Source: a phage. From it: DNA of 64,000 bases. A model generated the notes under the pieces. The model had not been told where the DNA came from. It made no database searches and saw only the letters and a list, made by a program, of their open reading frames with translations. This document shows positions 8,641 to 38,945 of the stretch, piece after piece (within the stretch, counting starts at the first letter, position 1; every line of letters starts with the position of its first letter). The position numbers and the translations under genes were made by a program. The stretch lies in NCBI GenBank assembly GCA_018175075.1, contig GCA_018175075.1_4100.2, one strand, 5' to 3'.

Positions 8641-8904
8641 ATGAATATTAAAGATAGATTACAATTACTATACACTATTGAACAGGCTGCTTTTGAACTT
8701 GTTAATAAAATCTCCGAAGAACTTCCCAAAGGAACTATAGTTCGTGTAATTGAGAGGGATTATGAATCTGGAGAAATTGAAGAACTAGTACTAACCGTGA
8801 ATAAAGTAACATACTATGAATCTGAGTTGGCTATCCAATGTATATCGGAAGATGGTAAAATATACTATTATGACACTGGTGTAGATATAGAGGTAATAAA
8901 ATGA
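8641..8904 (+). CDS. hypothetical protein
   Basis: ORF; start moved to ATG 8641 (GGTGGA upstream) to avoid overlap. Confidence 0.45.
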   Translation: MNIKDRLQLLYTIEQAAFELVNKISEELPKGTIVRVIERDYESGEIEELVLTVNKVTYYESELAIQCISEDGKIYYYDTGVDIEVIK

Positions 8905-10043
8905 CCCTTTTACAAATATATGAAGATTTAATGCACTTATGTAATACAAACGATGCGTTTTTTTATGTGGATCATAAAAGTCCTGCTGGTGGTACGTATC
9001 GTGTATTCAGTTATCGTCTAGCATCATACACTGATTTCATGCAACCAAATGCGTTGGAAACCCGTGGCTCTATGTGGGAAATTGATGAAGAAGGTGACAT
9101 GATACGTTGTGCAGCACGTACAATGAAAAAGTTCTTCAATGCTTACGAGAATCCTGCTACAATGTTCCCTGCTAACACCACATGCGATGACATTGCGGTA
9201 GTGATGCCTAAGTTGGATGGTTCGATTATCAGTACTTATCGTGATAATGATGGTGAGATTCGTTGTAAATCACATACTGCATTGTATTCTGACCATGCGA
9301 TTAACAGTACTCGACTTATTAACGAGAACCAGAATTTGTACCAGTACATCGACGAAGCGGAACGTTTAGGTTACACAGTTAATATGGAGTATACAAGCCC
9401 AGAGTACCGAATTGTATTACCATATCAGGTAGAACAACTGTTTGTACTGAACGTTCGACATCGTGTGAGTGGTGAGTTGCTATGTGGTAAAGCACTACGT
9501 GATAAGTTTCCATGTCTTGCACAGTACAGTACTAATATGACTGGAAAAGATATTCATCACACTTTTCCGGTACGAAATACCTTCCGTGAAAGCGTGGAGG
9601 AAGTTCATAAAATGCTTGATATTGAGGGTTTTGTGTGCATCCTAAATAATGGGACAATGTGTAAAATAAAGACTGACTGGTACAGTTCATTACATCTTAC
9701 AAAAGATAGTATTATTATTGATTCTCATTTATATGAAGCAGTATTAAATGGTTCAAGTGATGATTTAAAACAATTGTTCAGTACTGATGAATATGCTATG
9801 CAAAAGATATTAAGAATGGAACAATTGGTATTTTCGTGCTATAATGCATTACAAGATGAAGTAGAAAGCTTCGTCAAGGAACACAAGCACTTGGAGCGAA
9901 AGGAATTCGCAATGAAGGTTCAGGAGTGTTTAACTAATGAACTGAATCGTCAGGGCTTGGCCTTTGCAATGTATAACAATAAGAAAGTTGATTACAAAGA
10001 GACTCTTATAAAATACATGAAAATTGTACTAAAGGATTTTTAG
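8901..10043 (+). CDS. rnlA: RNA ligase 1 (T4 gp63-like)
   Basis: N-terminal region closely resembles T4 Rnl1 as I recall it (FFY...YR.FSY..ASY.D...P.ALE.RG.M.E); length 380 aa; RBS GAGGT. Confidence 0.85.
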   Translation: MTLLQIYEDLMHLCNTNDAFFYVDHKSPAGGTYRVFSYRLASYTDFMQPNALETRGSMWEIDEEGDMIRCAARTMKKFFNAYENPATMFPANTTCDDIAVVMPKLDGSIISTYRDNDGEIRCKSHTALYSDHAINSTRLINENQNLYQYIDEAERLGYTVNMEYTSPEYRIVLPYQVEQLFVLNVRHRVSGELLCGKALRDKFPCLAQYSTNMTGKDIHHTFPVRNTFRESVEEVHKMLDIEGFVCILNNGTMCKIKTDWYSSLHLTKDSIIIDSHLYEAVLNGSSDDLKQLFSTDEYAMQKILRMEQLVFSCYNALQDEVESFVKEHKHLERKEFAMKVQECLTNELNRQGLAFAMYNNKKVDYKETLIKYMKIVLKDF

Positions 10044-11139: not shown

Positions 11140-12072
11140 ATGCCAACTATTACACTAACAGTTGGATTACCTGGGTGTGGTAAAACCACATGGGCAGTTC
11201 AAGAAATTAAAAATGCCAAATCCAAGACTATCAACATCAACCGTGATGATATTCGTGAATCTATGGCTGGGTCACATGATGCTTACAAATTCAACGATGC
11301 TAATGAGCAGTACGTAACTAATTTACAGTTCAGTGCAGCAAATTCAGCAGCAGAGAATGGTTGGAACATCATCATATCCGATACAAACCTTAAACAACAT
11401 TTCCGTAATCTCTGGAAAGTATGGGCTAAAGATAATGGTTATGATTACAAAGAAAAGAACTTCTATGATGATTTTGTACCTAATGAAGACCGTGGTGCAG
11501 ATGTTCATGAATTCTTTAAGATTAAAGAGTTCGTAAAACTTTGTAAGAAATATAACCTCCAGCGTGAGCGTTCAGTACAAGATGATATCATTGACACAAT
11601 GGCAGATACGTACTATTATAGTAAGGCATTACACATTGGTTACTATGGTAATTCACGCGAAGCTGCTATCATCGTTGATATCGATGGAACTCTTGCTCAT
11701 AAATGGGGTCGTAATCCTTACGATGAAAGTACTGTTCTTCAGGATACACCTGATGAAGAAGTTATTTTGTCTATTATCGCTGAAGCAGTTTTTCATAAAC
11801 GCAAGATTATCGTCATGAGTGGGCGTACTGAAGGGTGTCGTACTGACACCGAACAGTGGCTTAAGAATTGGGGTGTTCCTTACGATGCATTGTTTATGCG
11901 AGGCATCGATGATAAACGTCCTGATGATGTTGTTAAATTCGACCTGTACATGAAAAATGTGGTTAATCAATACGATGTTAAAAAGGTATATGATGACCGC
12001 GAAGCCGTGACGTTCATGTGGCGTAAGCTACTTGGTTTGAAGGTATTTCAAGTAGATTTTGGACGTTTTTGA
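11140..12072 (+). CDS. pseT: polynucleotide 5'-kinase / 3'-phosphatase
   Basis: P-loop GLPGCGKTT and overall resemblance to T4 Pnk (INRDD, VDIDGTLA phosphatase motif); RBS AAGGAG. Confidence 0.85.
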   Translation: MPTITLTVGLPGCGKTTWAVQEIKNAKSKTININRDDIRESMAGSHDAYKFNDANEQYVTNLQFSAANSAAENGWNIIISDTNLKQHFRNLWKVWAKDNGYDYKEKNFYDDFVPNEDRGADVHEFFKIKEFVKLCKKYNLQRERSVQDDIIDTMADTYYYSKALHIGYYGNSREAAIIVDIDGTLAHKWGRNPYDESTVLQDTPDEEVILSIIAEAVFHKRKIIVMSGRTEGCRTDTEQWLKNWGVPYDALFMRGIDDKRPDDVVKFDLYMKNVVNQYDVKKVYDDREAVTFMWRKLLGLKVFQVDFGRF

Positions 12073-24367: not shown

Positions 24368-24863
24368 TACTAATATCTGGTTAGATAACATAATCAAGAC
24401 ATTAGAATTAATTAAACTTACATTACAAAAAACTACTGATATTGAAATTAATATTAAACAAGAAATATTAAACTATTATCATAGAAACAAATATAGCACG
24501 TTTATCTCTAAATTAATTTATGGATTATATGATATTGAAGATATTTGCATCGGTTACAGTACTGGTATTTGCTTCACTGTTAATGGTTTAAAAAATGATT
24601 TAAATTTCAGACTTTCCGATGAAGAGCAAGATTTTCGTAGATTTTGTGATAATATTATGGATACAGACAAAATTACATTTGTGATTGAATTAAATCAAAC
24701 ATGGTCTACATATGCAGATAAACCATTTGAAATTAATGAAACAGATGTGTTAAACTATATTCGAGTTATGAAAATTCATGATTTGTGTAAAAACGCATTG
24801 TTAAGTATTGGAGCTTATAATGAAACATACGACTTGGTTGAAGATAGCAGAAGTAGTTGCTGA
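24339..24863 (+). CDS. hypothetical protein
   Basis: ORF; 3' end overlaps cd start, boundary uncertain. Confidence 0.45.
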   Translation: MKYTHISIDDTNIWLDNIIKTLELIKLTLQKTTDIEINIKQEILNYYHRNKYSTFISKLIYGLYDIEDICIGYSTGICFTVNGLKNDLNFRLSDEEQDFRRFCDNIMDTDKITFVIELNQTWSTYADKPFEINETDVLNYIRVMKIHDLCKNALLSIGAYNETYDLVEDSRSSC

Positions 24864-25299
24864 GGAAAGTAAATGTATTTCACAAAAAGTTGGTTGTGTT
24901 ATTGTTAAAAATAATAGAGTATTGAGTACTGGATACAATGGAACGCCATCTAAGCAGCCAAACTGTTGTGATGTAAATCAACATTTAGTGAACGATGGTC
25001 GTTTTCAAGACTGGGTTGATGATGCAGCAAAACATGAACATCATGAGTGGAGTAATATTCATGAGATCCATGCAGAGATGAACGCTTTACTGTATAGTTC
25101 TCCGACTGAACGCCAAGGAGCAACTCTTTACACAACTCTACAACCATGCTATACTTGTTCTAAGTTAATCGCAGGTAGTGGGATTACCCGTGTAATTTAT
25201 CACAAAAGTTATCCACGAACACCACCTGAAGCGATTAAAGTACTGGAAGATGCTGGGATTATTGTTAACTGCATTTATGACAAGGGTATGAATCAATGA
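24820..25299 (+). CDS. cd: dCMP deaminase
   Basis: HAEMNAL and PCYTCSKLI zinc-binding deaminase motifs; start at ATG 24820. Confidence 0.8.
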   Translation: MKHTTWLKIAEVVAEESKCISQKVGCVIVKNNRVLSTGYNGTPSKQPNCCDVNQHLVNDGRFQDWVDDAAKHEHHEWSNIHEIHAEMNALLYSSPTERQGATLYTTLQPCYTCSKLIAGSGITRVIYHKSYPRTPPEAIKVLEDAGIIVNCIYDKGMNQ

Positions 25300-26944: not shown

Positions 26945-27205
26945 ATGACAAACATCCAAAACTTGACATCTATTATTTTTTATGCTACTGTAGTAATGTA
27001 TGCTACAGTTATTTTTCTAACAGTTTTCATTTACAAAGATTATCGTAATGGCTTTATTGATCCAACTACAATGAAGTTCAATTCAAAATTCGAAGCAATA
27101 ATTTATTATGTACTATCAACTTCATACTTGGTGTGCCTAATGTTGTTAGGAGCACTAATTTATATCTTATACACAACATTATTTGCAATTGGAGCTATTT
27201 TATGA
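26945..27205 (+). CDS. small membrane protein
   Basis: Two hydrophobic segments. Confidence 0.45.
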   Translation: MTNIQNLTSIIFYATVVMYATVIFLTVFIYKDYRNGFIDPTTMKFNSKFEAIIYYVLSTSYLVCLMLLGALIYILYTTLFAIGAIL

Positions 27206-27795
27206 CCTGTATTATTGCACACACTGACGGAGTAAGTTCTTTTATTGCTGGGGATAAGTTAGGAAGCAATGGATTTACAAAAACTGTTCAAACTGAGCCA
27301 AAGGTATTCGAGAAAGAATTTATCAAGTTACATGATGATGGACTAACTAGAACTAAAGAAGTAATGGCATTGGGTTATACTACATCATTTCGTATGGGTC
27401 AGTTGTTAAATTATAACCTTAATTTACCTGAACAAGATGCTAGTCAAACATTTTCACAATATTTGGTTCTTAAAGTTATTCCAATCATTCGTCAAATGTT
27501 TAAAGAAGAATGGGGTGCACGAGATGCATCACAAGATGTAGGTGGTGGACAATTTATCATTCTCCACAATCATACAATCTATGAAGTTCAAGAAGACTTT
27601 TCAGTACTACAACCTAAAACAAGAATTACCGCAGTAGGTAGTGGGACATATCATGCAATTGCAGCAATGCAAGCATATATTGAAGTTGAGAACGAATCTA
27701 AAAAACCACTACACGAACGTATCAAATCAATTTTTAAAATTGTTAGTGATAATGTAACAAGCGTAAGCGAAGAGTTTGATGTTTTAAAATATTAA
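27202..27795 (+). CDS. HslV/proteasome-like Ntn-hydrolase peptidase
   Basis: Predicted N-terminus MTCIIAHTDG...IAGDK and AVGSGTYHAIAAMQAY, compared with E. coli HslV TTIVSV...IAGDGQ and IAIGSGGPYAQAAARA; Thr2 would be N-terminal after Met removal. Confidence 0.5.
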   Translation: MTCIIAHTDGVSSFIAGDKLGSNGFTKTVQTEPKVFEKEFIKLHDDGLTRTKEVMALGYTTSFRMGQLLNYNLNLPEQDASQTFSQYLVLKVIPIIRQMFKEEWGARDASQDVGGGQFIILHNHTIYEVQEDFSVLQPKTRITAVGSGTYHAIAAMQAYIEVENESKKPLHERIKSIFKIVSDNVTSVSEEFDVLKY

Positions 27796-27822
27796 AAGTA
27801 CTAATATTATAAGAGAGAATAG

Positions 27823-28023
27823 ATGATGGCATACACAATTTATGAATGGGTTTTGAGTTTTTTTATAGTTTTTTCTATTGTTGTAATTTATAACAATGCT
27901 AAATGCTTATATAGAGACTTGAAATCCAATGGTTATCACAAAGATAATAATTTTATGTATGCCTATCATATTGGAATCATTCTGTTATTATCAATATATT
28001 TAATTGTTTTTTATAAGGATTGA
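27823..28023 (+). CDS. small membrane protein
   Basis: Hydrophobic ORF. Confidence 0.45.
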   Translation: MMAYTIYEWVLSFFIVFSIVVIYNNAKCLYRDLKSNGYHKDNNFMYAYHIGIILLLSIYLIVFYKD

Positions 28024-28025
28024 AT

Positions 28026-28778
28026 ATGATATCAGAAAAATTTATAAGCAATGAAGGTAAAAAGCGATTACTGATTATATCAGGTGCAGGACTTTCTGTT
28101 GAAAGTGGTATGGAACCTTTTCGATTTGATGATGGTTTGTGGGATACATTTAAAATTAATGATGTATGTAACATTGCTAGTTTAACTACGAAATATCACG
28201 TTGTTCATTCCTTCTATAATACATTACGTGTAAAATTGGGACAATGCGAACCCAATGCAATGCATTATTTTATAAAATCGTTAGAAGATCAATATGGTGA
28301 TTGCTTCCTTCATATGACTTCTAACATGGACGATCTTTATACTCGTATTGGTGGTCATGAGCTTAAACTTCATGGAAACTTGTGCGAAGTTATTGAAAAT
28401 TATAGTATCAATTCCGATGATTATAATGTTATTAACTGCGGATACGAACCATACATACCAAAACATGATGTTTTTGCTAAACCAAATGTAGTAATGATTG
28501 GAGAATATCATCGTTATGTTGATGGTATTCGCTTACCAATTTACGAAGAACGAAATAATGTGTTGAAATCTCTTAATGAAAATGATACAGTTATTGTAAT
28601 TGGTAGTAGCGATACAGTACTGGTATGGTCGAGATTAGCAGCAGCATTACCATGTTATAGTGTTAATGTTAACATTCGTAAAAATGATAATGATTTTTTG
28701 TTTAATGAAAAAGTTATCAAGCCAGCAACCAAAGCAATACCGCATCTAGAGACTATAATTAAGGAACGTATGAAATGA
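28026..28778 (+). CDS. Sir2-family (sirtuin-like) NAD-dependent protein
   Basis: GAGLSVESGMEPFR NAD-binding motif and LHGN catalytic His motif; start at ATG 28026. Confidence 0.65.
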   Translation: MISEKFISNEGKKRLLIISGAGLSVESGMEPFRFDDGLWDTFKINDVCNIASLTTKYHVVHSFYNTLRVKLGQCEPNAMHYFIKSLEDQYGDCFLHMTSNMDDLYTRIGGHELKLHGNLCEVIENYSINSDDYNVINCGYEPYIPKHDVFAKPNVVMIGEYHRYVDGIRLPIYEERNNVLKSLNENDTVIVIGSSDTVLVWSRLAAALPCYSVNVNIRKNDNDFLFNEKVIKPATKAIPHLETIIKERMK

Positions 28779-29326
28779 GTGTTAAAGAAGTTCCCTTTGG
28801 TGAATATGGCACACGTGCAAATTTTGTATTTTGTTATTTCTTTGCAAGAAAATGCAACCCTTACAAAAACTATGAGTTGAATGATATACCAGAAGTAAAT
28901 TTAGTATTACTGCAATTACGATGGGATGGTCTTCTTGGTGGATGTGGTGGAACCGTAGAAAGTACTGATATCTCACTAGAAGATGCGTTGCGTCGTGAAG
29001 TTCAAGAAGAAATGGATTACAATATTTTTGTTTCCCATCTTCGACCACTCAAAACTTTTGAAATTTACCCAGGTGCAAACAGTCACAGTTTTAGCTATGA
29101 AGTAACCTATGACGAGTTGAAACACATTAGAGATGGATACACTAATGCTAAACATGCAAGTGCAGAAGTTGCTGGTGTAAATTTATGTCATATTTCTCGT
29201 TATTCTAAGGGACAAAATCGAGAAGCGGGATATAATAATCTTATGACACAGAACTTCATCGGTACAGCAAAACAAGAATTGGAGTATCTGGTTCAAAAAG
29301 AAAACTTACTAATTAGTTATCTATAG
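28775..29326 (+). CDS. Nudix-like hydrolase
   Basis: GCGGTVE ... REVQEE matches a Nudix box with atypical spacing. Confidence 0.45.
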   Translation: MSVKEVPFGEYGTRANFVFCYFFARKCNPYKNYELNDIPEVNLVLLQLRWDGLLGGCGGTVESTDISLEDALRREVQEEMDYNIFVSHLRPLKTFEIYPGANSHSFSYEVTYDELKHIRDGYTNAKHASAEVAGVNLCHISRYSKGQNREAGYNNLMTQNFIGTAKQELEYLVQKENLLISYL

Positions 29327-30015: not shown

Positions 30016-31455
30016 ATGAAAAAATATACAATTGACACAAACGTACTACTATCTGACCCTAATGCATCTATTGCTTTTGATGGTGCTGCAATCATTCTAC
30101 CATTTACAGTACTGGAAGAATTGGATTCAATTAAGAGTCGTAATGTAGATGTTTCACGCGATGCTCGTGTTGCTATTCGTAACATTGAAGCAATTATTGC
30201 AGATGCATCACATGATGAGATTAGTAGTACTGGTGTTAATATTGCTGATGTTCATACCAATATGAATCCTGATAGCAAATTGTTTGTTATTACAAACGAA
30301 GAAGCTGAAGCACTAATTCGTACTAAAGGTTCAGAAGAGAAAGTTCAAACCCTTCTCAAAAGCACAGTACCTGATGATAAAATCATTCTGGTAGCTTTAG
30401 CAACAGAATCAGTACTGGTAACTCGTGATATCAACATGCGTATCAAAGCACTAAGTTATGGTGTCGAGGTACAAGATTATCGCCATGATATTGTTATTGG
30501 TGATAGTGATTTGATTCACATTGGTCAACACCATTTGGAAATCAATTTTTGGGAAGTATATAGCAACTTAACCAATACTAATATTCAATCCGAACAAGTT
30601 GGTCGTCGTTTGTATCATTACATTTCCAAAAGCTTGATTGAGCATTTGCTCCCACAAAATCTATGCATCGGGGATTATCTATATGATGATGCAGACGTAT
30701 TATTTGTGTACGAAGGTCAATCAGCAATTGAGGAAGATGATGGAACACTAACACCAGAAGATATTTTGGTATTCCAAGATATTGGACAATCAGTAGCTTT
30801 ACGTGCTAAAGTATGGGATATTAAAGCAAAGAATATCCAACAAGCACTCGCCATCAACAGTATTCTCGATCCTGATGTACATCTAACAGTACTGCTAGGT
30901 TCTGCTGGTACTGGTAAAACACTAATTACGATTGCGACTGCATTAGAATTAGTACTGGAAAAACGTAAATACGACCGAATCATCTTCTCTAAAACTCAAG
31001 ACTCACAGTTTGAAGATATTGGTTTCTTGCCAGGTTCAGAAGCAGAAAAAGTGATTCCATTCTGTGGAGCCGCAATTGACGCGTTAGAGTTTCTTCATAA
31101 AGATGATGCTAACCCTCAAGGTAGTATTGAAGAGATTATGAAACGTAATGTTATTCAATTTAAAGCACTAAACTTTGTACGTGGACGTTCATTCACCAAC
31201 ACTATTCTAGTAGTTGATGAATTCCAAAACATTACACCTGCACAAGCCAAAACAATCTTGACACGAGCAGGATTAAACTGTAAAGTAGTAATTATGGGTA
31301 ACTTGAGTCAGATTGACAGTAAGTTTATTAGTCCTGTTAACAGTGGTTTGACATATGTAACTGAGAAGTTTAAAGATTGGGCAGGTTGTCGTGTCATCGA
31401 ACTAGAAGGTGTTGTTCGTTCACCACTTGCAGAATTTGCTGAAGAAAATATGTAA
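30016..31455 (+). CDS. phoH: PIN-domain / PhoH-like ATPase
   Basis: N-terminal IDTNVLL (PIN-like); Walker A LLGSAGTGKT; Walker B-like ILVVDEFQN; RBS AAGGA. Confidence 0.8.
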   Translation: MKKYTIDTNVLLSDPNASIAFDGAAIILPFTVLEELDSIKSRNVDVSRDARVAIRNIEAIIADASHDEISSTGVNIADVHTNMNPDSKLFVITNEEAEALIRTKGSEEKVQTLLKSTVPDDKIILVALATESVLVTRDINMRIKALSYGVEVQDYRHDIVIGDSDLIHIGQHHLEINFWEVYSNLTNTNIQSEQVGRRLYHYISKSLIEHLLPQNLCIGDYLYDDADVLFVYEGQSAIEEDDGTLTPEDILVFQDIGQSVALRAKVWDIKAKNIQQALAINSILDPDVHLTVLLGSAGTGKTLITIATALELVLEKRKYDRIIFSKTQDSQFEDIGFLPGSEAEKVIPFCGAAIDALEFLHKDDANPQGSIEEIMKRNVIQFKALNFVRGRSFTNTILVVDEFQNITPAQAKTILTRAGLNCKVVIMGNLSQIDSKFISPVNSGLTYVTEKFKDWAGCRVIELEGVVRSPLAEFAEENM

Positions 31456-34446: not shown

Positions 34447-34492
34447 TATCAGTACTACCACAGTGGGCAGTACTTTTTAATTGGAGATTACT

Positions 34493-35107
34493 ATGACTAC
34501 ATCGGAAAAGTACTGGTGGATTTTGGCTCATCCTAAATTCATAAACAAAGATATGGTTCCAGCTAGGATTGATATAGAACCTCATGATGTGTGTCCAATG
34601 ACAAATCGAATTGAAGATTTCAAAGCATTGAATACAAAGACTCAATTTTGGGTAGAATTTCTTTCACCAATGTATATTGAGCAAGACGACGAATGGGTAC
34701 AAGCACATGATTATCAATTGGATTGTGGTGGTGATACGTATGAAGAGGCGATTGATAAATTATACAAAAATGTGCTAAACACATATGGTGATTACACCCA
34801 ACAAGAAGCAGATAACACATTTAATAAGATCCATGCATTCAAATCTACTCCATCAATTTTTAATCCCACTAAAACTGTTTGGGAGGAACGACACAGTTGG
34901 AGTTCATGTGTAATCGATGAAGAAACCAAAGAAAAAATCATCGATGATATAAAAAATTTAAAAAATACGATAGAAGCCTTGCGTGAATTCATAATGTCTT
35001 GTACAATAGAACAACAGAAAGAGGCAAAGATACATTTGGAGAGTGAAGAATGTAAACTTTGGGTTCTAGAGAAATCTATTGAAAAGGGTATAGACTTAGA
35101 CTTATGA
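34493..35107 (+). CDS. hypothetical protein
   Basis: ORF; start at ATG 34493 after TTGGAG. Confidence 0.5.
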   Translation: MTTSEKYWWILAHPKFINKDMVPARIDIEPHDVCPMTNRIEDFKALNTKTQFWVEFLSPMYIEQDDEWVQAHDYQLDCGGDTYEEAIDKLYKNVLNTYGDYTQQEADNTFNKIHAFKSTPSIFNPTKTVWEERHSWSSCVIDEETKEKIIDDIKNLKNTIEALREFIMSCTIEQQKEAKIHLESEECKLWVLEKSIEKGIDLDL

Positions 35108-35472
35108 ATAGTAAATTGGAGAAACTAATCGAAGAATTACGCCAGATGCCACCTATTGAACAAGTAGGAAATTACAAACGGTATCGTGTTATTGCTCGTG
35201 CACTTGATAAAAAAGGTAGAGTACTGGCAACTCGCACAAATTCTTATACACAGACTCACCCAGTACAGAAGGGTTTCGCCATTCGTGCTGGGCGACCGCA
35301 AGGTGAGTTTCTTCATGCTGAAATTTCATGTTTACTGGCTGCTCGTGCTGATGTTCATACTTTACTGATTGCACGGATAAGTAAAGATGGAATTCCTGTT
35401 CCGGCTAAACCATGTGAAATTTGCTCATTAGCAATAAAAGAATATGGGGTGAAAGAGATTATCCACACATGA
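35104..35472 (+). CDS. CDA-fold zinc deaminase-like protein
   Basis: HAE and PCEIC motifs of cytidine/deoxycytidylate deaminase-like zinc enzymes. Confidence 0.55.
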   Translation: MNSKLEKLIEELRQMPPIEQVGNYKRYRVIARALDKKGRVLATRTNSYTQTHPVQKGFAIRAGRPQGEFLHAEISCLLAARADVHTLLIARISKDGIPVPAKPCEICSLAIKEYGVKEIIHT

Positions 35473-35690
35473 AAATTGAAAGATATGCTAAGCATACTGT
35501 TGGGTGTGTAAATGATATATTCTATTATTATATTTTTGCACCTGAACTACGTTTTCAAATCACAACATACAATGATGGCAGATTTAAAGATACAAACTTC
35601 CTCATAACCGACTTAGCAAAGTATGCGAATACAGAACATTTTAATCATTTAGTATTTGTGTACTGTATACCAAACCCAAATAAAAAGTAG
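35469..35690 (+). CDS. small hypothetical protein
   Basis: ATGA overlap with deaminase stop. Confidence 0.4.
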   Translation: MKIERYAKHTVGCVNDIFYYYIFAPELRFQITTYNDGRFKDTNFLITDLAKYANTEHFNHLVFVYCIPNPNKK

Positions 35691-36877: not shown

Positions 36878-36980
36878 ACTTGTCATAGGTTGTAGTGCAC
36901 TTGCTGCATATATGCTTTTTTCCGCACCAACCAATGTATTACTGTTAATTTGGGCAGTTGTTATATTAGCAGTACTTTAA
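36864..36980 (+). CDS. possible 38-aa hydrophobic peptide
   Basis: ORF below track threshold; GGAG 5 nt upstream; ends at terminator. Confidence 0.3.
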   Translation: MRLAKLVIGCSALAAYMLFSAPTNVLLLIWAVVILAVL

Positions 36981-37003
36981 AGCACCCTAGTGGTGCTTTT
37001 TCT
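36979..37003 (+). terminator. intrinsic terminator
   Basis: Hairpin AGCACC...GGTGCT plus T-run. Confidence 0.6.
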
Positions 37004-37139
37004 ATTTGTGCAAATAAAAACCAATGTGACTTTTCCTTGATATAGGTCAAGAGAAATAACCTGTTCTGACGCTATAATGTTGTCTGGTGATATTAAATAT
37101 CTTCACCCCCAGATGATTTCAAAATACAAGGAATGTACA

Positions 37140-38945
37140 ATGCAATTAGATAAATTATATACTGACGTAACGAATTTCCTCAATCAGAGCAATACTGATC
37201 TTACCAACGAAAATGCGAACAAAGATGCGAAATGCGTCAATACACACAGGGATTTACTTGCAGGTATCCTATCTAAGCATTATTCACAAGATGTTATTCC
37301 AAATGAGCTAATGCAGTGGCATAATGATGGTTATGGTCATATTCATGATTTAGACTACTATATCAGCCCATTAACCAACTGTTGCTTAGTTAACTACCCA
37401 GATATGCTAAAAAATGGATTTACCATTGGTTGTGCCAAAATTGAAGAACCAAAGAGTTTTAGTGTAGCATGTACAGTACTGACACAGATTGTACAAGCAG
37501 TAGCTAGTTCCCAATACGGCGGTCAATCGTTGGCTCACATTGATGTTGGTTTAGAACCTTACGTTCAAAAGTCATGGGATAAGCTGTTAGAAAAACAAAA
37601 GAAATATAATCTAAGTGATGAGTTCATTGAAGAAGAATTACGAAAAGAAGTATACGATGGATGTCAAACATTACTTTACCAGACTAATTCAATGATTAGC
37701 ACTAATGGACAAGCTGCATTCATTTCTCTTAGTTTAGGGCTTAATACTTCTAAATTTGGTAAATTAATCACTGAACAGTACTTAAAAGTTCATGAGAATG
37801 GTTTAGGTAAAGATAAGATTACTCCAGTGTTTCCTAAAGTAATTTTCTTTTTACAAGATGGTATAAACATGAATACCAATGATAGTAATTATGACCTTAA
37901 ACAGTTAGCTATGCGTTGTGCATCAAAACGAATCTACCCAGACTTTGTTTCAGTTCCATTAAATCACAAAGTGACGGGAAGTAGTAGTACTGCTGTAACA
38001 CCGATGGGATGTCGTTCATTCTTAGGAAAATGGGAAGATTCAAATGGAAATGAACAATACAACGGTCGTTTCAATTTAGGTGTGGTTTCTATCAATTTAC
38101 CTCTAATTGCTCTTGAGAGTGATTCTGATGGAGAGTTTTTTGATAAGATAGACGAGCATATGAATATTGCATATCGTGCTCAGATGAACCGTGTGGAGCG
38201 TTTAAAAGGCACTAAAGCGAAGCAGAATCCAATTTTGTTCATGGAAGGTGCATTAGCACGTTTAGGTGCAGAAGAAACCATTGACAAGCTATTTTACAAT
38301 GGTTATGCTAGTATTAGTATTGGTTATGTTGGTCTTGTTGAATGTTCAGAAATCCTCACTGGTTCTATCAGTAAGGAGTTTTGTATGTCAGTACTGAATT
38401 ATATGAAAGTAAAATGTGATGAGTTCAAAAAAGAAAGTAATATTGCTTTTAGTCTATATGGAACTCCAGCAGAGTCGCTTTGTTATAAATTTGCACGTTG
38501 CATTGAAGCAAAATATCCTTCAGTACTAAAACGTGATTACATCACAAATTCCTTCCATCAACCAGTATGGGTAGAAAGTTCTCCATTTGATAAATGGAGT
38601 TATGAAGAAGGCTTTGCTTACCTAAGTAACGGTGGAAACATCAGTTATGTTGAATCTCCAAACTTAGCAAACAACATTCAAGCACTTGAAACATTAGTTA
38701 ACTATGCTTACACGAAGATACCATATTTTGGTATTAACCAACCAGTTGACCATTGTTATGAATGTGGCTTCCAGGGTGAGTTCAGTGTAGATAAACATGG
38801 TTTCCACTGTCCGGTATGTGATAATCGTAATGAGAAGACAATCTCAGTGATTCGTCGTGTTTCTGGTTACTTGGGTAATCCTTCTTCGCGTGGATTCAAT
38901 AAAGGCAAACAACAAGAGTGTTGTGAGCGTATTCAGCACAAATAA
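37140..38945 (+). CDS. nrdD: anaerobic ribonucleoside-triphosphate reductase
   Basis: C-terminal glycyl-radical motif RRVSGYLG and CxxC...CPVC; N-terminal NENANKD resembles T4 NrdD; start moved to ATG 37140 (AAGGAA RBS) because the track ATG 37077 overlaps a TATAAT. Confidence 0.85.
   Translation: MQLDKLYTDVTNFLNQSNTDLTNENANKDAKCVNTHRDLLAGILSKHYSQDVIPNELMQWHNDGYGHIHDLDYYISPLTNCCLVNYPDMLKNGFTIGCAKIEEPKSFSVACTVLTQIVQAVASSQYGGQSLAHIDVGLEPYVQKSWDKLLEKQKKYNLSDEFIEEELRKEVYDGCQTLLYQTNSMISTNGQAAFISLSLGLNTSKFGKLITEQYLKVHENGLGKDKITPVFPKVIFFLQDGINMNTNDSNYDLKQLAMRCASKRIYPDFVSVPLNHKVTGSSSTAVTPMGCRSFLGKWEDSNGNEQYNGRFNLGVVSINLPLIALESDSDGEFFDKIDEHMNIAYRAQMNRVERLKGTKAKQNPILFMEGALARLGAEETIDKLFYNGYASISIGYVGLVECSEILTGSISKEFCMSVLNYMKVKCDEFKKESNIAFSLYGTPAESLCYKFARCIEAKYPSVLKRDYITNSFHQPVWVESSPFDKWSYEEGFAYLSNGGNISYVESPNLANNIQALETLVNYAYTKIPYFGINQPVDHCYECGFQGEFSVDKHGFHCPVCDNRNEKTISVIRRVSGYLGNPSSRGFNKGKQQECCERIQHK

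What the first reader, a model, noticed from the sequence alone, without database searches (positions are those of the whole stretch)
35104..35472. Second, divergent CDA-fold deaminase besides dCMP deaminase
A 122-aa protein carries the H-A-E and P-C-x-x-C zinc-deaminase signature but is unrelated in length and context to the cd gene at 24820..25299. Small deaminases of this fold in phages can act on nucleotides or on nucleic acids, including as toxins or modification enzymes.
Basis: partly seen in the sequence, partly recalled or inferred. Interest (0 to 1): 0.45.

Follow-up and report, generated by a model that had tools for sequence, protein, structure and literature searches.

The report
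Truncated mini-deaminase of large phages
The gene is real and encodes a second zinc deaminase of unknown substrate, one of a large, unstudied, apparently phage-restricted family of unusually small, highly basic enzymes related to dCMP deaminase.

Summary
Observation confirmed. Window 35104..35472 (+) encodes a 122-aa protein with H71-A-E73 and P103-C-x-x-C107. It passes Pfam PF00383 narrowly (29 vs 25 bits), is under purifying selection (dN/dS 0.03) and gives a confident CDA-fold model (pLDDT 91.8). The window is an Asteriusvirus-type jumbo coliphage (PBECO4/121Q group).

The protein is not a canonical dCMP deaminase. It fails most published clade synapomorphies (second Zn site, NxxP, HxExNA, TxxxT, helix 4), all of which the window's cd gene (24820..25299) meets. 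It belongs to a distinct clade: 1,022 50%-identity clusters at E<=1e-10, 96-166 aa, median pI 9.65. The clade appears in 169 viral loci but only 2 short MAG contigs, and it includes phiKZ gp260. By sequence it is nearest to dCMP deaminases (S-TIM5 dCD, 1.5e-9). Some members carry a CDA-like beta4-beta5 hairpin. The window protein ends at beta4, so it has only four strands.

Function is untested. Best guess (0.45): an unregulated deaminase of phosphorylated cytosine nucleotides that raises dUMP/dTTP supply in AT-rich phages. Main rival (0.25): an RNA or ssDNA deaminase, favoured by the basic charge and by coexistence with Cd or Dcd. No context supports a toxin, a TadA or a modified-cytosine role.

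Novelty: new variant of a known kind. Interest is moderate.

The parts
35104..35472 (+). Mini-deaminase gene (122 aa plus stop). Predicted layout: alpha1 3-14, beta1 28-34, beta2 40-45, insert helix 53-61, alpha2 72-80, beta3 86-92, alpha3 105-114, beta4 118-121, then the protein ends.
   Evidence: ORF; PF00383; AF2 pLDDT 91.8; dN/dS 0.03
35314..35322 (+). H71-A72-E73: zinc ligand His and catalytic Glu at the start of helix alpha2
   Evidence: Invariant in all family alignments; aligned to the HAE of 4p9c, 2hvv and 1vq2
35410..35424 (+). P103-C104-E-I-C107: two zinc-ligand cysteines at the start of helix alpha3
   Evidence: Invariant; aligned to the PCxxC of solved dCMP deaminases
35239..35313 (+). 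Clade signature insert between beta2 and alpha2 (N46-S-Y-x-K/Q-T-H52-P53-x-Q55...A59...G63...L70). N46 to H71 spans 25 residues, against 24 in S-TIM5 dCD and 11 in the M. capricolum tRNA deaminase. The insert contains no Cys, so it has no second Zn site.
   Evidence: Column conservation in 160 sequences: N46 98%, H52 95%, P53 95%, Q55 87%, K50 85%; lengths counted from the alignments
35374..35376 (+). R91, a near-invariant Arg (157/160) at the C-terminal end of beta3, next to the active-site loops. It is a candidate phosphate ligand (inference).
   Evidence: position from the AF2 secondary structure
34481..35107 (+). Upstream gene (PHROG 16370, function unknown; 204-208 aa). Its stop overlaps the deaminase start (ATGA). 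It is the only neighbour conserved in all 12 Rak2-like loci. The N-terminal domain carries the motif LDCGGDTYEEA.
35469..35690 (+). Downstream 73-aa ORF whose ATG overlaps the deaminase stop. It is not a conserved partner, because this slot holds different genes in related phages.
24820..25299 (+). Canonical dCMP deaminase (cd) of the same phage. It meets every published dCMP-deaminase synapomorphy and serves as the comparison gene.
   Evidence: PF00383 78 bits; sequence features C19, GYNGTP, CC..H insert, HAEMNA, TLYTT, VIYHKSY checked against Iyer 2011 Table 1
36979..36999 (+). Terminator-like hairpin (8-bp stem followed by a T run). It closes the co-directional block of small genes that contains the deaminase, just upstream of nrdD (37077..38945).
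   Evidence: gene order

Best explanation
The gene encodes a catalytically competent zinc hydrolytic deaminase of the CDA superfamily. It belongs to a phage-restricted clade of mini-deaminases of about 100-140 aa. By sequence the clade sits next to dCMP deaminases. It has lost the structural second zinc site, helix 4 and the whole C-terminal part, which in canonical dCMP deaminases is understood (general knowledge, not tested here) to contribute to the hexamer and the dCTP/dTTP allosteric site. Some relatives keep a short beta4-beta5 hairpin, but the window protein stops at beta4. Most likely it deaminates a phosphorylated cytosine nucleotide (dCMP and/or dCTP, possibly CMP/CTP) without allosteric control. 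That would add to the dUMP -> dTMP flux that an AT-rich virulent phage (33% GC) needs when it rebuilds its DNA from the nucleotides of a more GC-rich host, working alongside the regulated canonical Cd. SHOWN: the fold, intact catalytic residues, clade identity and size, restriction to phages, purifying selection, AT-rich carriers, and the lack of dCMP-deaminase synapomorphies. INFERRED: the substrate class, the lack of regulation and the physiological role.
Against: No experiment exists for any member (searches found none). In two of three lineages checked, the gene coexists with another dC-to-dU nucleotide enzyme: canonical Cd in the window phage and a dUTPase-fold dCTP deaminase, gp214, in phiKZ. 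A simply redundant role is therefore unattractive. The family is uniformly very basic (median pI 9.65, net +9), unlike the window Cd (pI 6.7), which fits nucleic-acid binding at least as well. The short forms lack beta5 and all C-terminal elements, which may leave the pocket open. The gene is not adjacent to thymidylate synthase in general. The AT-rich correlation may reflect shared ancestry of the carrier phages. Related phage PF00383 enzymes have shown unexpected substrates (5mdCTP and ssDNA, but not dCMP).
Confidence: 0.45

Rival explanations
1. It is a polynucleotide deaminase. It would bind RNA (tRNA, rRNA or mRNA) or ssDNA through its basic surface and edit C (or A) in situ, for example to retune translation or damage host nucleic acid during takeover.
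For: The family is uniformly basic: median pI 9.65, IQR 9.4-9.8, net +9 in about 120 aa. The short forms lack beta5 and the C-terminal elements, so the pocket may be open. The gene coexists with Cd or Dcd, which argues for a non-redundant function. The second-best PDB sequence match is a tRNA deaminase (6l2l, 2.4e-7). There is a precedent: the phage 'dCMP deaminase' mSCD-B5 deaminates ssDNA.
Against: TadA synapomorphies are absent: there is no (E)PCxMC motif and no C-terminal helices, which in TadA contact tRNA. phiKZ encodes no tRNA-Arg; by general knowledge tRNA-Arg(ACG) is the classical bacterial A34 substrate, so gp260 would have no such phage-encoded substrate. The conserved beta2-alpha2 insert corresponds in position to the cap that excludes polymers in dCMP deaminases. 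There is no fused targeting domain. A DNA deaminase would also endanger the phage's own DNA in Rak2-like phages, which lack a phage nucleus.
Confidence: 0.25
2. It is a nucleoside-level or small-molecule deaminase of the CDA/blasticidin-S-deaminase type, acting on (deoxy)cytidine or a cytosine-containing metabolite or antibiotic, and probably works as a homo-oligomer.
Against: CDA-clade synapomorphies are missing: PCxxC is not followed by Arg, and the window protein has no strand 5 on which the conserved Glu could sit. The sequence profile matches CDA only weakly (1ux1 6e-3, against 1.5e-9 for dCMP deaminase), and NCBIfam cyt_deam_tetra scores 13.7 bits against a 113.65 cutoff. A near-invariant Arg/Lys/His set on active-site loops and a very basic pI are not expected for an uncharged nucleoside substrate (inference).
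Confidence: 0.12
3. It is a modification-linked deaminase like mSCD-B5, specific for 5-methyl- or 5-hydroxymethyl-dCTP/dCMP in phages with modified cytosine.
For: Phage PF00383 proteins with this activity exist and are polyphyletic.
Against: Those enzymes are associated with a ThyA-family dCMP methylase or hydroxymethylase within 3 kb (70% vs 6%). No ThyA family (PF00303) appears among the 25 families displayed (of 79 hit) for the 119 neighbouring ORFs of 20 non-redundant loci. mSCD-B5 is a 154-aa canonical fold close to PBCV-1 bi-DCD (Foldseek 3e-15), whereas the mini model matches 7fh4 only at 4.5e-3. The held paper on a close relative reports no cytosine hypermodification for this phage group.
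Confidence: 0.05
4. It is a toxin or counter-defence effector, for example one that destroys a cytosine-containing immune signal or depletes a host nucleotide pool to harm the host.
For: CDA-fold domains are common bacterial toxins (Iyer 2011). 57 of 97 members give weak MafB19-deam Pfam hits. The gene sits in a block of small early-type genes of unknown function.
Against: The MafB19 Pfam model also hits the canonical Cd, and more strongly (58 bits), so the hit is not specific. The proteins are stand-alone, with no delivery domain or cognate immunity gene, and the downstream gene is variable. There is no PADLOC match. The strong conservation across very different phage lineages (jumbo coliphages, phiKZ, cyanophages) is not what one would expect of a fast-evolving conflict gene (inference).
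Confidence: 0.06

Closest known systems
dCMP deaminase / ComEB clade (T4 Cd 1vq2, S. mutans 2hvv, human DCTD 2w4l, and especially the 138-aa cyanophage S-TIM5 dCD 4p9c)
   Different: The mini protein has no second Zn site, no NxxP, no HxExNA and no TxxxT. It has no helix 4, no parallel strand 5 and no C-terminal region, so presumably no hexamer or allosteric site. It has an extra loop of about 10 residues between beta3 and PCxxC. It is very basic (pI 9.7 vs 6.7 for the window Cd).
Homotetrameric cytidine deaminase and blasticidin-S deaminase (3dmo, 4wif, 3mpz, 1wn5, 3b8f)
   Same: These are the top structural matches and are similar in size. Long-form relatives share the antiparallel beta4-beta5 C-terminal hairpin.
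   Different: The mini protein has HAE where these mostly have CAE, no PCxxCR, and only weak sequence similarity. The window protein lacks strand 5 altogether. TM-scores are only about 0.5.
PBCV-1 bifunctional dCMP/dCTP deaminase (7fh4) and phage mSCD-B5-type 5mC-selective deaminases
   Different: These are full 140-154-aa canonical folds. mSCD-type genes sit next to ThyA homologues, and the mini clade does not. The mini model matches 7fh4 only at Foldseek E 4.5e-3.
TadA / Tad2 tRNA adenosine deaminase
   Different: The mini protein lacks the (E)PCxMC motif and the two C-terminal helices that bind tRNA. Its beta2-alpha2 insert spans 25 residues against 11. phiKZ has no tRNA-Arg.
MafB19-like and other polymorphic-toxin deaminases
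   Same: It has HxE combined with hairpin-division topology in the long forms, an Asn at the end of strand 2, and a Gly at the start of strand 4. Many members give weak PF14437 hits.
   Different: There is no N-terminal delivery or repeat domain and no immunity gene. The family is phage-restricted and well conserved. PF14437 also hits canonical Cd.

Membership tests
CDA-fold zinc deaminase superfamily (Pfam PF00383 / deaminase fold) | [HC]xE at the N-terminus of helix 2 and PCxxC at the N-terminus of helix 3, on an alpha/beta/alpha core | tested here: met
CDA-fold zinc deaminase superfamily (Pfam PF00383 / deaminase fold) | Five-stranded sheet in order 2-1-3-4-5 (Iyer 2011) | tested here: not met
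   The window protein ends at strand 4 (E118-121, residue 122 is the last). 57% of 307 family members are equally short. The long-form relative has strand 5.
dCMP deaminase / ComE clade (Iyer 2011, Table 1) | [quoted passage not shown] | tested here: not met
   An insert of similar length is present, but the protein's only cysteines are C76, C104 and C107, with none in residues 1-70. The window Cd has C19 and C49/C50 plus His residues.
dCMP deaminase / ComE clade (Iyer 2011, Table 1) | NxxP at the end of strand 2 | tested here: not met
   The sequence is N46-S-Y-T, and the conserved Pro is at +7 (P53). The window Cd has GYNGTP.
dCMP deaminase / ComE clade (Iyer 2011, Table 1) | [quoted passage not shown] | tested here: not met
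   The window has HAEISC and the family consensus is HAEIxA. Ala is often present, but Asn is not. The window Cd has HAEMNA.
dCMP deaminase / ComE clade (Iyer 2011, Table 1) | TxxxT in strand 3 directly preceding PCxxC | tested here: not met
   The sequence is H85-T-L-L-I-A-R91, followed by a 10-residue loop before P103. The window Cd has TLYTTLQPC.
dCMP deaminase / ComE clade (Iyer 2011, Table 1) | [quoted passage not shown] | tested here: not met
   The family has Tyr at position 121 in 68% of members, but the window has His121. No member modelled has helix 4: the region is either absent or an antiparallel hairpin.
dCMP deaminase (function) | Deaminates dCMP to dUMP; hexamer activated by dCTP and inhibited by dTTP | not testable with these tools
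   This needs an enzyme assay and oligomer analysis.
CDD/CDA cytidine deaminase and BSD clade (Iyer 2011, Table 1) | C[H]AE in helix 2 | tested here: met
   HAE is the minority variant allowed by the definition.
CDD/CDA cytidine deaminase and BSD clade (Iyer 2011, Table 1) | PCxxCR motif in helix 3 | tested here: not met
   The window has PCEICS. Position 108 across the family is Q, E or S.
CDD/CDA cytidine deaminase and BSD clade (Iyer 2011, Table 1) | C-terminal beta4-beta5 hairpin with a conserved Glu at the end of strand 5 | tested here: not met
   The window protein has no strand 5. Long-form relatives have the hairpin, but a conserved terminal Glu was not established.
TadA/Tad2 tRNA adenosine deaminase (Iyer 2011, Table 1) | (E)PCxMC motif, basic residue after strand 4, and two extra C-terminal helices with conserved E and F | tested here: not met
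   The window has KPCEIC and the protein ends at strand 4. NCBIfam TadA models give no hit.
MafB19-like toxin deaminase (Iyer 2011, Table 1) | Toxin architecture: N-terminal secretion or repeat domains and an adjacent immunity gene | tested here: not met
   The proteins are stand-alone (96-166 aa). The downstream gene is variable. No such domains appear among the families displayed for the neighbours. The PF14437 hit is below its cutoff (12.3 vs 27 bits).
Anti-phage dCTP deaminase (PADLOC dCTPase / NCBIfam NF041025) | Match to the defence deaminase models | tested here: not met
   The mini protein has no PADLOC or NCBIfam hit, whereas the canonical Cd hits at 1.7e-24 and 6e-20.
Phage mini-deaminase clade defined here (includes phiKZ gp260) | 96-166 aa; D-K-[KR]-G...N-S-Y-x-K-[TS]-H-P-x-Q...L-H-A-E...R (end of strand 3)...G...[AS]-K-P-C-x-[IV]-C...[YH]-[TS]; ends at strand 4 or at a short hairpin | tested here: met
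   The window protein matches the clade profile at 2.9e-43 and carries every signature residue except K50 (Q in the window).

The most novel reading that the evidence does not exclude
The clade is a natural family of ultra-compact (about 100-125 aa), strongly basic deaminases that act on single-stranded nucleic acid (ssDNA or RNA) with only a four-stranded core. Large phages, including phiKZ (gp260), would use it to edit host or phage RNA or DNA. It would be among the smallest polynucleotide deaminase scaffolds known and directly useful for base editing.
Probability: 0.2. Interest if true: 0.75.

Novelty: new variant of a known kind. Interest (0 to 1): 0.45.

Why it matters
If the classification holds, more than a thousand sequence clusters now annotated as 'dCMP deaminase', 'TadA' or 'hypothetical' form a separate, uncharacterised enzyme clade. 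Its fold is a pared-down deaminase core of four strands, sometimes without helix 1, and it occurs in model phages (phiKZ gp260; Rak2, 121Q and PBECO4; T4-like cyanophages). Knowing its substrate would show how AT-rich virulent phages reshape pyrimidine pools, and why phages keep it next to a canonical Cd or Dcd. If it acts on polynucleotides, it would provide very small scaffolds for base-editing tools. It is also a warning about annotation: neither 'dCMP deaminase' nor 'TadA' is justified for these genes.

Tried and rejected
(1) Split gene or partner hypothesis. I asked whether the 73-aa ORF overlapping the stop (35469..35690) supplies the missing strand 5 or acts as an immunity or partner protein. 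Rejected: that slot holds unrelated genes in the 12 Rak2-like loci, while all orthologues still end at '..HT' or '..YT'.

(2) Conserved-neighbour search across 80 viral loci, using all-vs-all clustering and a Pfam census of 119 ORFs. No partner is shared outside the Rak2-like group.

(3) Upstream gene as a functional clue. Its family is almost confined to Rak2-like phages and has no Pfam hit. One distant lineage has a homologue overlapping a dUTPase gene and another does not. I kept this only as a lead.

(4) Modified-cytosine pathway. No ThyA homologue appears among the neighbour families displayed.

(5) TadA reading. It fails the TadA synapomorphies, and phiKZ has no tRNA-Arg.

(6) Direct PDB sequence hit with the single protein: none. 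A profile was needed.

BFVD returned only unnamed family members.

(8) The search for related loci with the 97-sequence alignment failed because the alignment was too diverse. The genome scan then used a single narrow pattern, so its sensitivity is limited.

(9) The S-TIM5 dCD structure paper is not held, so I could not map phosphate ligands residue by residue.

(10) The promoter scan found no more sites than shuffled sequence.

(11) Literature searches for gp260, jumbo-phage deaminases and small phage deaminases found no experimental work on the clade.
Full report
OBSERVATION. The ORF is exactly as described: ATG at 35104, TGA at 35470-35472, 122 codons, + strand. H71-A72-E73 is encoded at 35314-35322 and P103-C-E-I-C107 at 35410-35424. 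The start codon overlaps the stop of the upstream gene (ATGA), and the stop overlaps the ATG of a 73-aa downstream ORF. The window is 99% identical to Asteriusvirus-type jumbo coliphages of about 350 kb, such as SHEFM2K, PBECO4, phAPEC6 and slurp01. Deposited records call this gene either 'hypothetical protein' or 'dCMP deaminase'.

IS IT REAL? Yes.
- Pfam PF00383 is passed narrowly (29.0 vs 25 bits, E 1e-6), while the cd gene at 24820..25299 scores 78 bits.
- PHROG 174 gives 3e-13.
- A single-sequence search of PDB sequences finds nothing, and no NCBIfam model is reached, so the protein is divergent.
- The two window deaminases are not detectably similar pairwise (phmmer E 0.92).
- The catalytic and zinc residues are invariant in alignments of 23, 97 and 160 homologues.
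- dN/dS against the 121Q-type orthologue is 0.03 at dS 0.54.
- AlphaFold2 gives a confident model (pLDDT 91.8, pTM 0.84) with HAE and PCxxC at the N-termini of two helices, as in active enzymes.
- Profile alignments superpose both motifs on those of solved dCMP deaminases.

WHAT FAMILY?
- Size of the clade. The word-indexed search found 49 relatives, mostly on contigs of about 350 kb. The exhaustive profile search found 4,291 cluster representatives at E<=1e-3 and 1,022 at E<=1e-10. The 150 best were all 96-166 aa.
- Signature. The clade has a sharp signature: D-K-[KR]-G, N46 (98%), S-Y-x-K50-[TS]-H52-P53-x-Q55, L-H-A-E, R91 (98%) at the end of strand 3, G96, [AS]-K-P-C-x-[IV]-C, and [YH]-[TS] at the end of strand 4.
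- Pfam. All 97 members scanned hit only generic PF00383. The weaker MafB19-deam and Bd3614-deam hits are not specific, because the canonical Cd hits them too.
- Distribution. The clade is essentially phage-restricted. There are 169 confirmed loci in IMG/VR, against 2 hits in representative genomes of 185,579 species, both on MAG contigs of 6-15 kb. The genome scan used one narrow pattern, so its sensitivity is limited.
- Cultured phages. The gene is in about 197 of 50,697 records: Rak2-like jumbo phages of many enterobacteria and Xanthomonas, phiKZ-like phages (PHIKZ260 = gp260), large T4-like cyanophages (ACG-2014f, S-SCSM1, S-CAM7), Aeromonas phages of about 115 kb, and Salicola SCTP-2.
- Literature. 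No paper in the held library reports an experiment on any member.

STRUCTURE AND PLACEMENT.
- Window model. The layout is alpha1, beta1, beta2, a 25-residue insert with one helix, alpha2 (HAE), beta3, a 10-residue loop, alpha3 (PCxxC), beta4, and then the protein ends. It has four strands and no helix 4, strand 5 or C-terminal helices.
- Forms across the family. Of 307 members, 57% are equally short, 36% carry about 11 more residues ('YTTxxGxxxE..'), and about a third also lack alpha1, giving proteins of about 100 aa.
- Long form. An AF2 model of a long-form relative (P0237, pLDDT 92.1) shows that the tail forms an antiparallel beta4-beta5 hairpin. In the classification of Iyer et al. [quoted passage not shown]
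- Insert length. The N-to-HAE spacing is the same as in S-TIM5 dCD (25 vs 24 residues) and much greater than in the tRNA deaminase (11).
- Synapomorphy test. Against the published dCMP-deaminase synapomorphies, the window Cd meets all of them: C19, GYNGTP, the CC..H insert, HAEMNA, TLYTT and VIYHKSY. The mini protein meets essentially none. It has no Cys before residue 76, N-S-Y-T in place of NxxP, HAEISC, HTLLIAR, and no helix 4. It also lacks the PCxxCR of the CDA clade and the TadA motifs.
- Conclusion. This is a clade of its own. It is most simply read as a drastically reduced offshoot of the dCMP-deaminase lineage, but rooting needs a proper phylogeny.

CONTEXT.
- In the window. The gene lies in a long co-directional block of small genes of unknown function that ends at a terminator-like hairpin (36979-36999) just before nrdD/nrdG. 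Promoter-like sites are no more frequent than in shuffled sequence.
- Neighbours in Rak2-like loci. In all 12 loci the upstream gene (34481..35107, PHROG 16370) directly precedes the deaminase, usually with a 4-nt overlap. The downstream slot is variable.
- The upstream gene's family. It is nearly confined to these phages. Its N-terminal domain (motif LDCGGDTYEEA) recurs in short proteins elsewhere. In one lineage that protein overlaps a dUTPase gene, and in another it does not.
- Other loci. Across 20 non-redundant non-jumbo loci, no family is enriched among 119 neighbouring ORFs. The tool displays only the 25 most frequent of the 79 families hit. Those show scattered T4-type replication and nucleotide genes (gp32, gp59, RNR-beta, ThyX, dUTPase) and no ThyA, toxin or immunity modules.
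- PADLOC. It has no match for the mini protein, while the canonical Cd matches the defence dCTPase model.

CLUES TO FUNCTION.
(a) Whole-genome six-frame searches, with the window as positive control (both deaminases were found, at 3e-43 and 9e-7). In KLEP7 (117 kb) the mini gene gp40 is the only CDA-fold gene and sits beside a thymidylate synthase. In phiKZ, gp260 is the only CDA-fold gene, but a dUTPase-fold dCTP deaminase (gp214), thymidylate synthase, DHFR, dTMP kinase and RNR are present. The window phage has the mini gene plus the canonical Cd, and close relatives encode a thymidylate synthase.
(b) All 80 viral loci are AT-rich (GC 30-48%, median 38.5%). The window is 33.3%, KLEP7 35.3% and phiKZ 36.8%. 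By general knowledge these values are well below those of the hosts (E. coli about 51%, P. aeruginosa about 66%).
(c) The family is uniformly very basic (median pI 9.65, net charge +9), whereas the window Cd has pI 6.7.
(d) A bioRxiv study (10.1101/2024.12.05.627091) shows that phage PF00383 'dCMP deaminases' can be specific for 5mdCTP and 5hmdCTP and can act on ssDNA while ignoring dCMP. Those enzymes are 154-aa canonical folds that sit next to ThyA homologues. Substrate therefore cannot be read from the family name.

MECHANISM.
- Chemistry (established for the fold). Zn bound by H71, C104 and C107 activates water, and E73 shuttles protons, giving hydrolytic deamination of an exocyclic amine.
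- Substrate (inferred). I favour a phosphorylated cytosine nucleotide, handled without allosteric control, that supplements dUMP/dTTP supply in AT-rich phages (confidence 0.45). The reasons are the sequence kinship with dCMP deaminases, the conserved cap-like insert, near-invariant basic residues on the active-site loops, the phage nucleotide-metabolism setting, the sole-deaminase case in KLEP7, and the AT-rich carriers.
- Main rival. A polynucleotide (RNA or ssDNA) deaminase (0.25) is favoured by the basic charge, the possibly open pocket of the truncated forms, coexistence with Cd or Dcd, and the mSCD precedent.
- Less likely. Nucleoside or small-molecule (CDA/BSD-like, 0.12), modified-cytosine-specific (0.05) and toxin or counter-defence (0.06) roles are less likely for the reasons given under each rival. 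An inactive protein is very unlikely, given the invariant catalytic residues and strong purifying selection.

NOVELTY AND VERDICT. The gene's existence, and a loose 'dCMP deaminase' label, are already in GenBank. What appears to be new is the recognition that it represents a large, phage-restricted, structurally truncated clade that fails the membership tests for dCMP deaminase, CDA and TadA, and that includes phiKZ gp260. I rate it a new variant of a known kind, of moderate interest (0.45). Interest would rise considerably if the enzymes turn out to act on nucleic acids.

Noticed in passing
window 34481..35107; loci L094-L097 (gene at L094:3327-3770, dUTPase at L094:3763-4287): The upstream gene's N-terminal domain (motif LDCGGDTYEEA, 41-48% identical over 73-91 aa) recurs in 139-147-aa proteins of other phage contigs. 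In one lineage that protein overlaps a dUTPase-family gene by 8 nt. This may link the domain to dUMP-producing enzymes, but a second lineage (L098-L101) lacks the dUTPase.
   Followed up: partly
window 24820..25299 versus 35104..35472: Mosaicism. The cd gene is 99.8% identical in DNA to phage 121Q but only 91% to PBECO4 and SHEFM2K. The mini-deaminase protein is 100% identical to PBECO4's and 97% to the copy on the 348,532-bp IMG/VR contig L003, whose length equals that of 121Q. This suggests recombination between Asteriusvirus lineages within the window.
   Followed up: no
GenBank OR545507.1 (Sharanji) 302356-302835; LT603033.1 (slurp01) 159568-160035: The canonical Cd orthologue is annotated 'tRNA-specific adenosine deaminase (tadA)' in these records, and the Sharanji paper discusses it as a translation factor. 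The sequence meets all dCMP-deaminase synapomorphies, so this looks like a mis-annotation. The mini-deaminase orthologue (WNN14749.1) is left as 'hypothetical'.
   Followed up: yes
window 35469..35690 and the equivalent slot in L003-L014: The position immediately downstream of the mini-deaminase is a variable slot. It holds at least six unrelated gene clusters in 12 Rak2-like loci, while the upstream side is fixed. It may be a hotspot for gene exchange.
   Followed up: partly
window 27133..29326: By transfer from the E9.1 record, this stretch holds an HslV-family peptidase, a Sir2 NAD-dependent deacetylase-like gene (28020..28778) and an overlapping Nudix hydrolase (28775..29326), followed by PhoH (30016..31455). 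A Sir2+Nudix pair in a phage could relate to NAD+ or ADP-ribose counter-defence. I did not verify this with profiles.
   Followed up: no
window 8901..10043 and 11140..12072: An RNA ligase ('RNA ligase and tail fiber attachment catalyst') and a polynucleotide kinase are annotated in the E9.1 record. Together they form a T4-like tRNA-repair pair, in a window that has no tRNA genes.
   Followed up: no
phiKZ NC_004629.1 246758..247117 (gp260): phiKZ gp260 is a member of the clade (profile E 1.3e-28). It has H-S-E in place of H-A-E and 'YPCPTC', and it ends in '..VIVSIGK'. It is the only CDA-fold gene in phiKZ, which also encodes a dUTPase-fold dCTP deaminase (gp214).
   Followed up: yes
locus L094:2034-3275 (JGI metagenome contig Ga0377222_002783): A TnpB/IS605 OrfB (Cas12f-like TNB) gene sits inside what looks like a phage contig, immediately upstream of the homologue of the upstream-gene domain and the dUTPase.
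   Followed up: no
Pseudaeromonas phage KLEP7 OM654377.1 73342..75688 and 91490..93613: NrdD is annotated as two separate CDSs (gp127 and gp128) with a gap of about 260 nt, and the RNA ligase is annotated as intein-containing. The record also annotates two separate 'ribonucleoside triphosphate reductase' CDSs (gp197 and gp198) near its end.
   Followed up: no
window 36979..36999: A strong terminator-like hairpin (8-bp stem with 4 GC pairs, loop of 5, then a T-rich tail) lies about 80 nt upstream of the nrdD ORF. It marks the end of the small-gene block.
   Followed up: no
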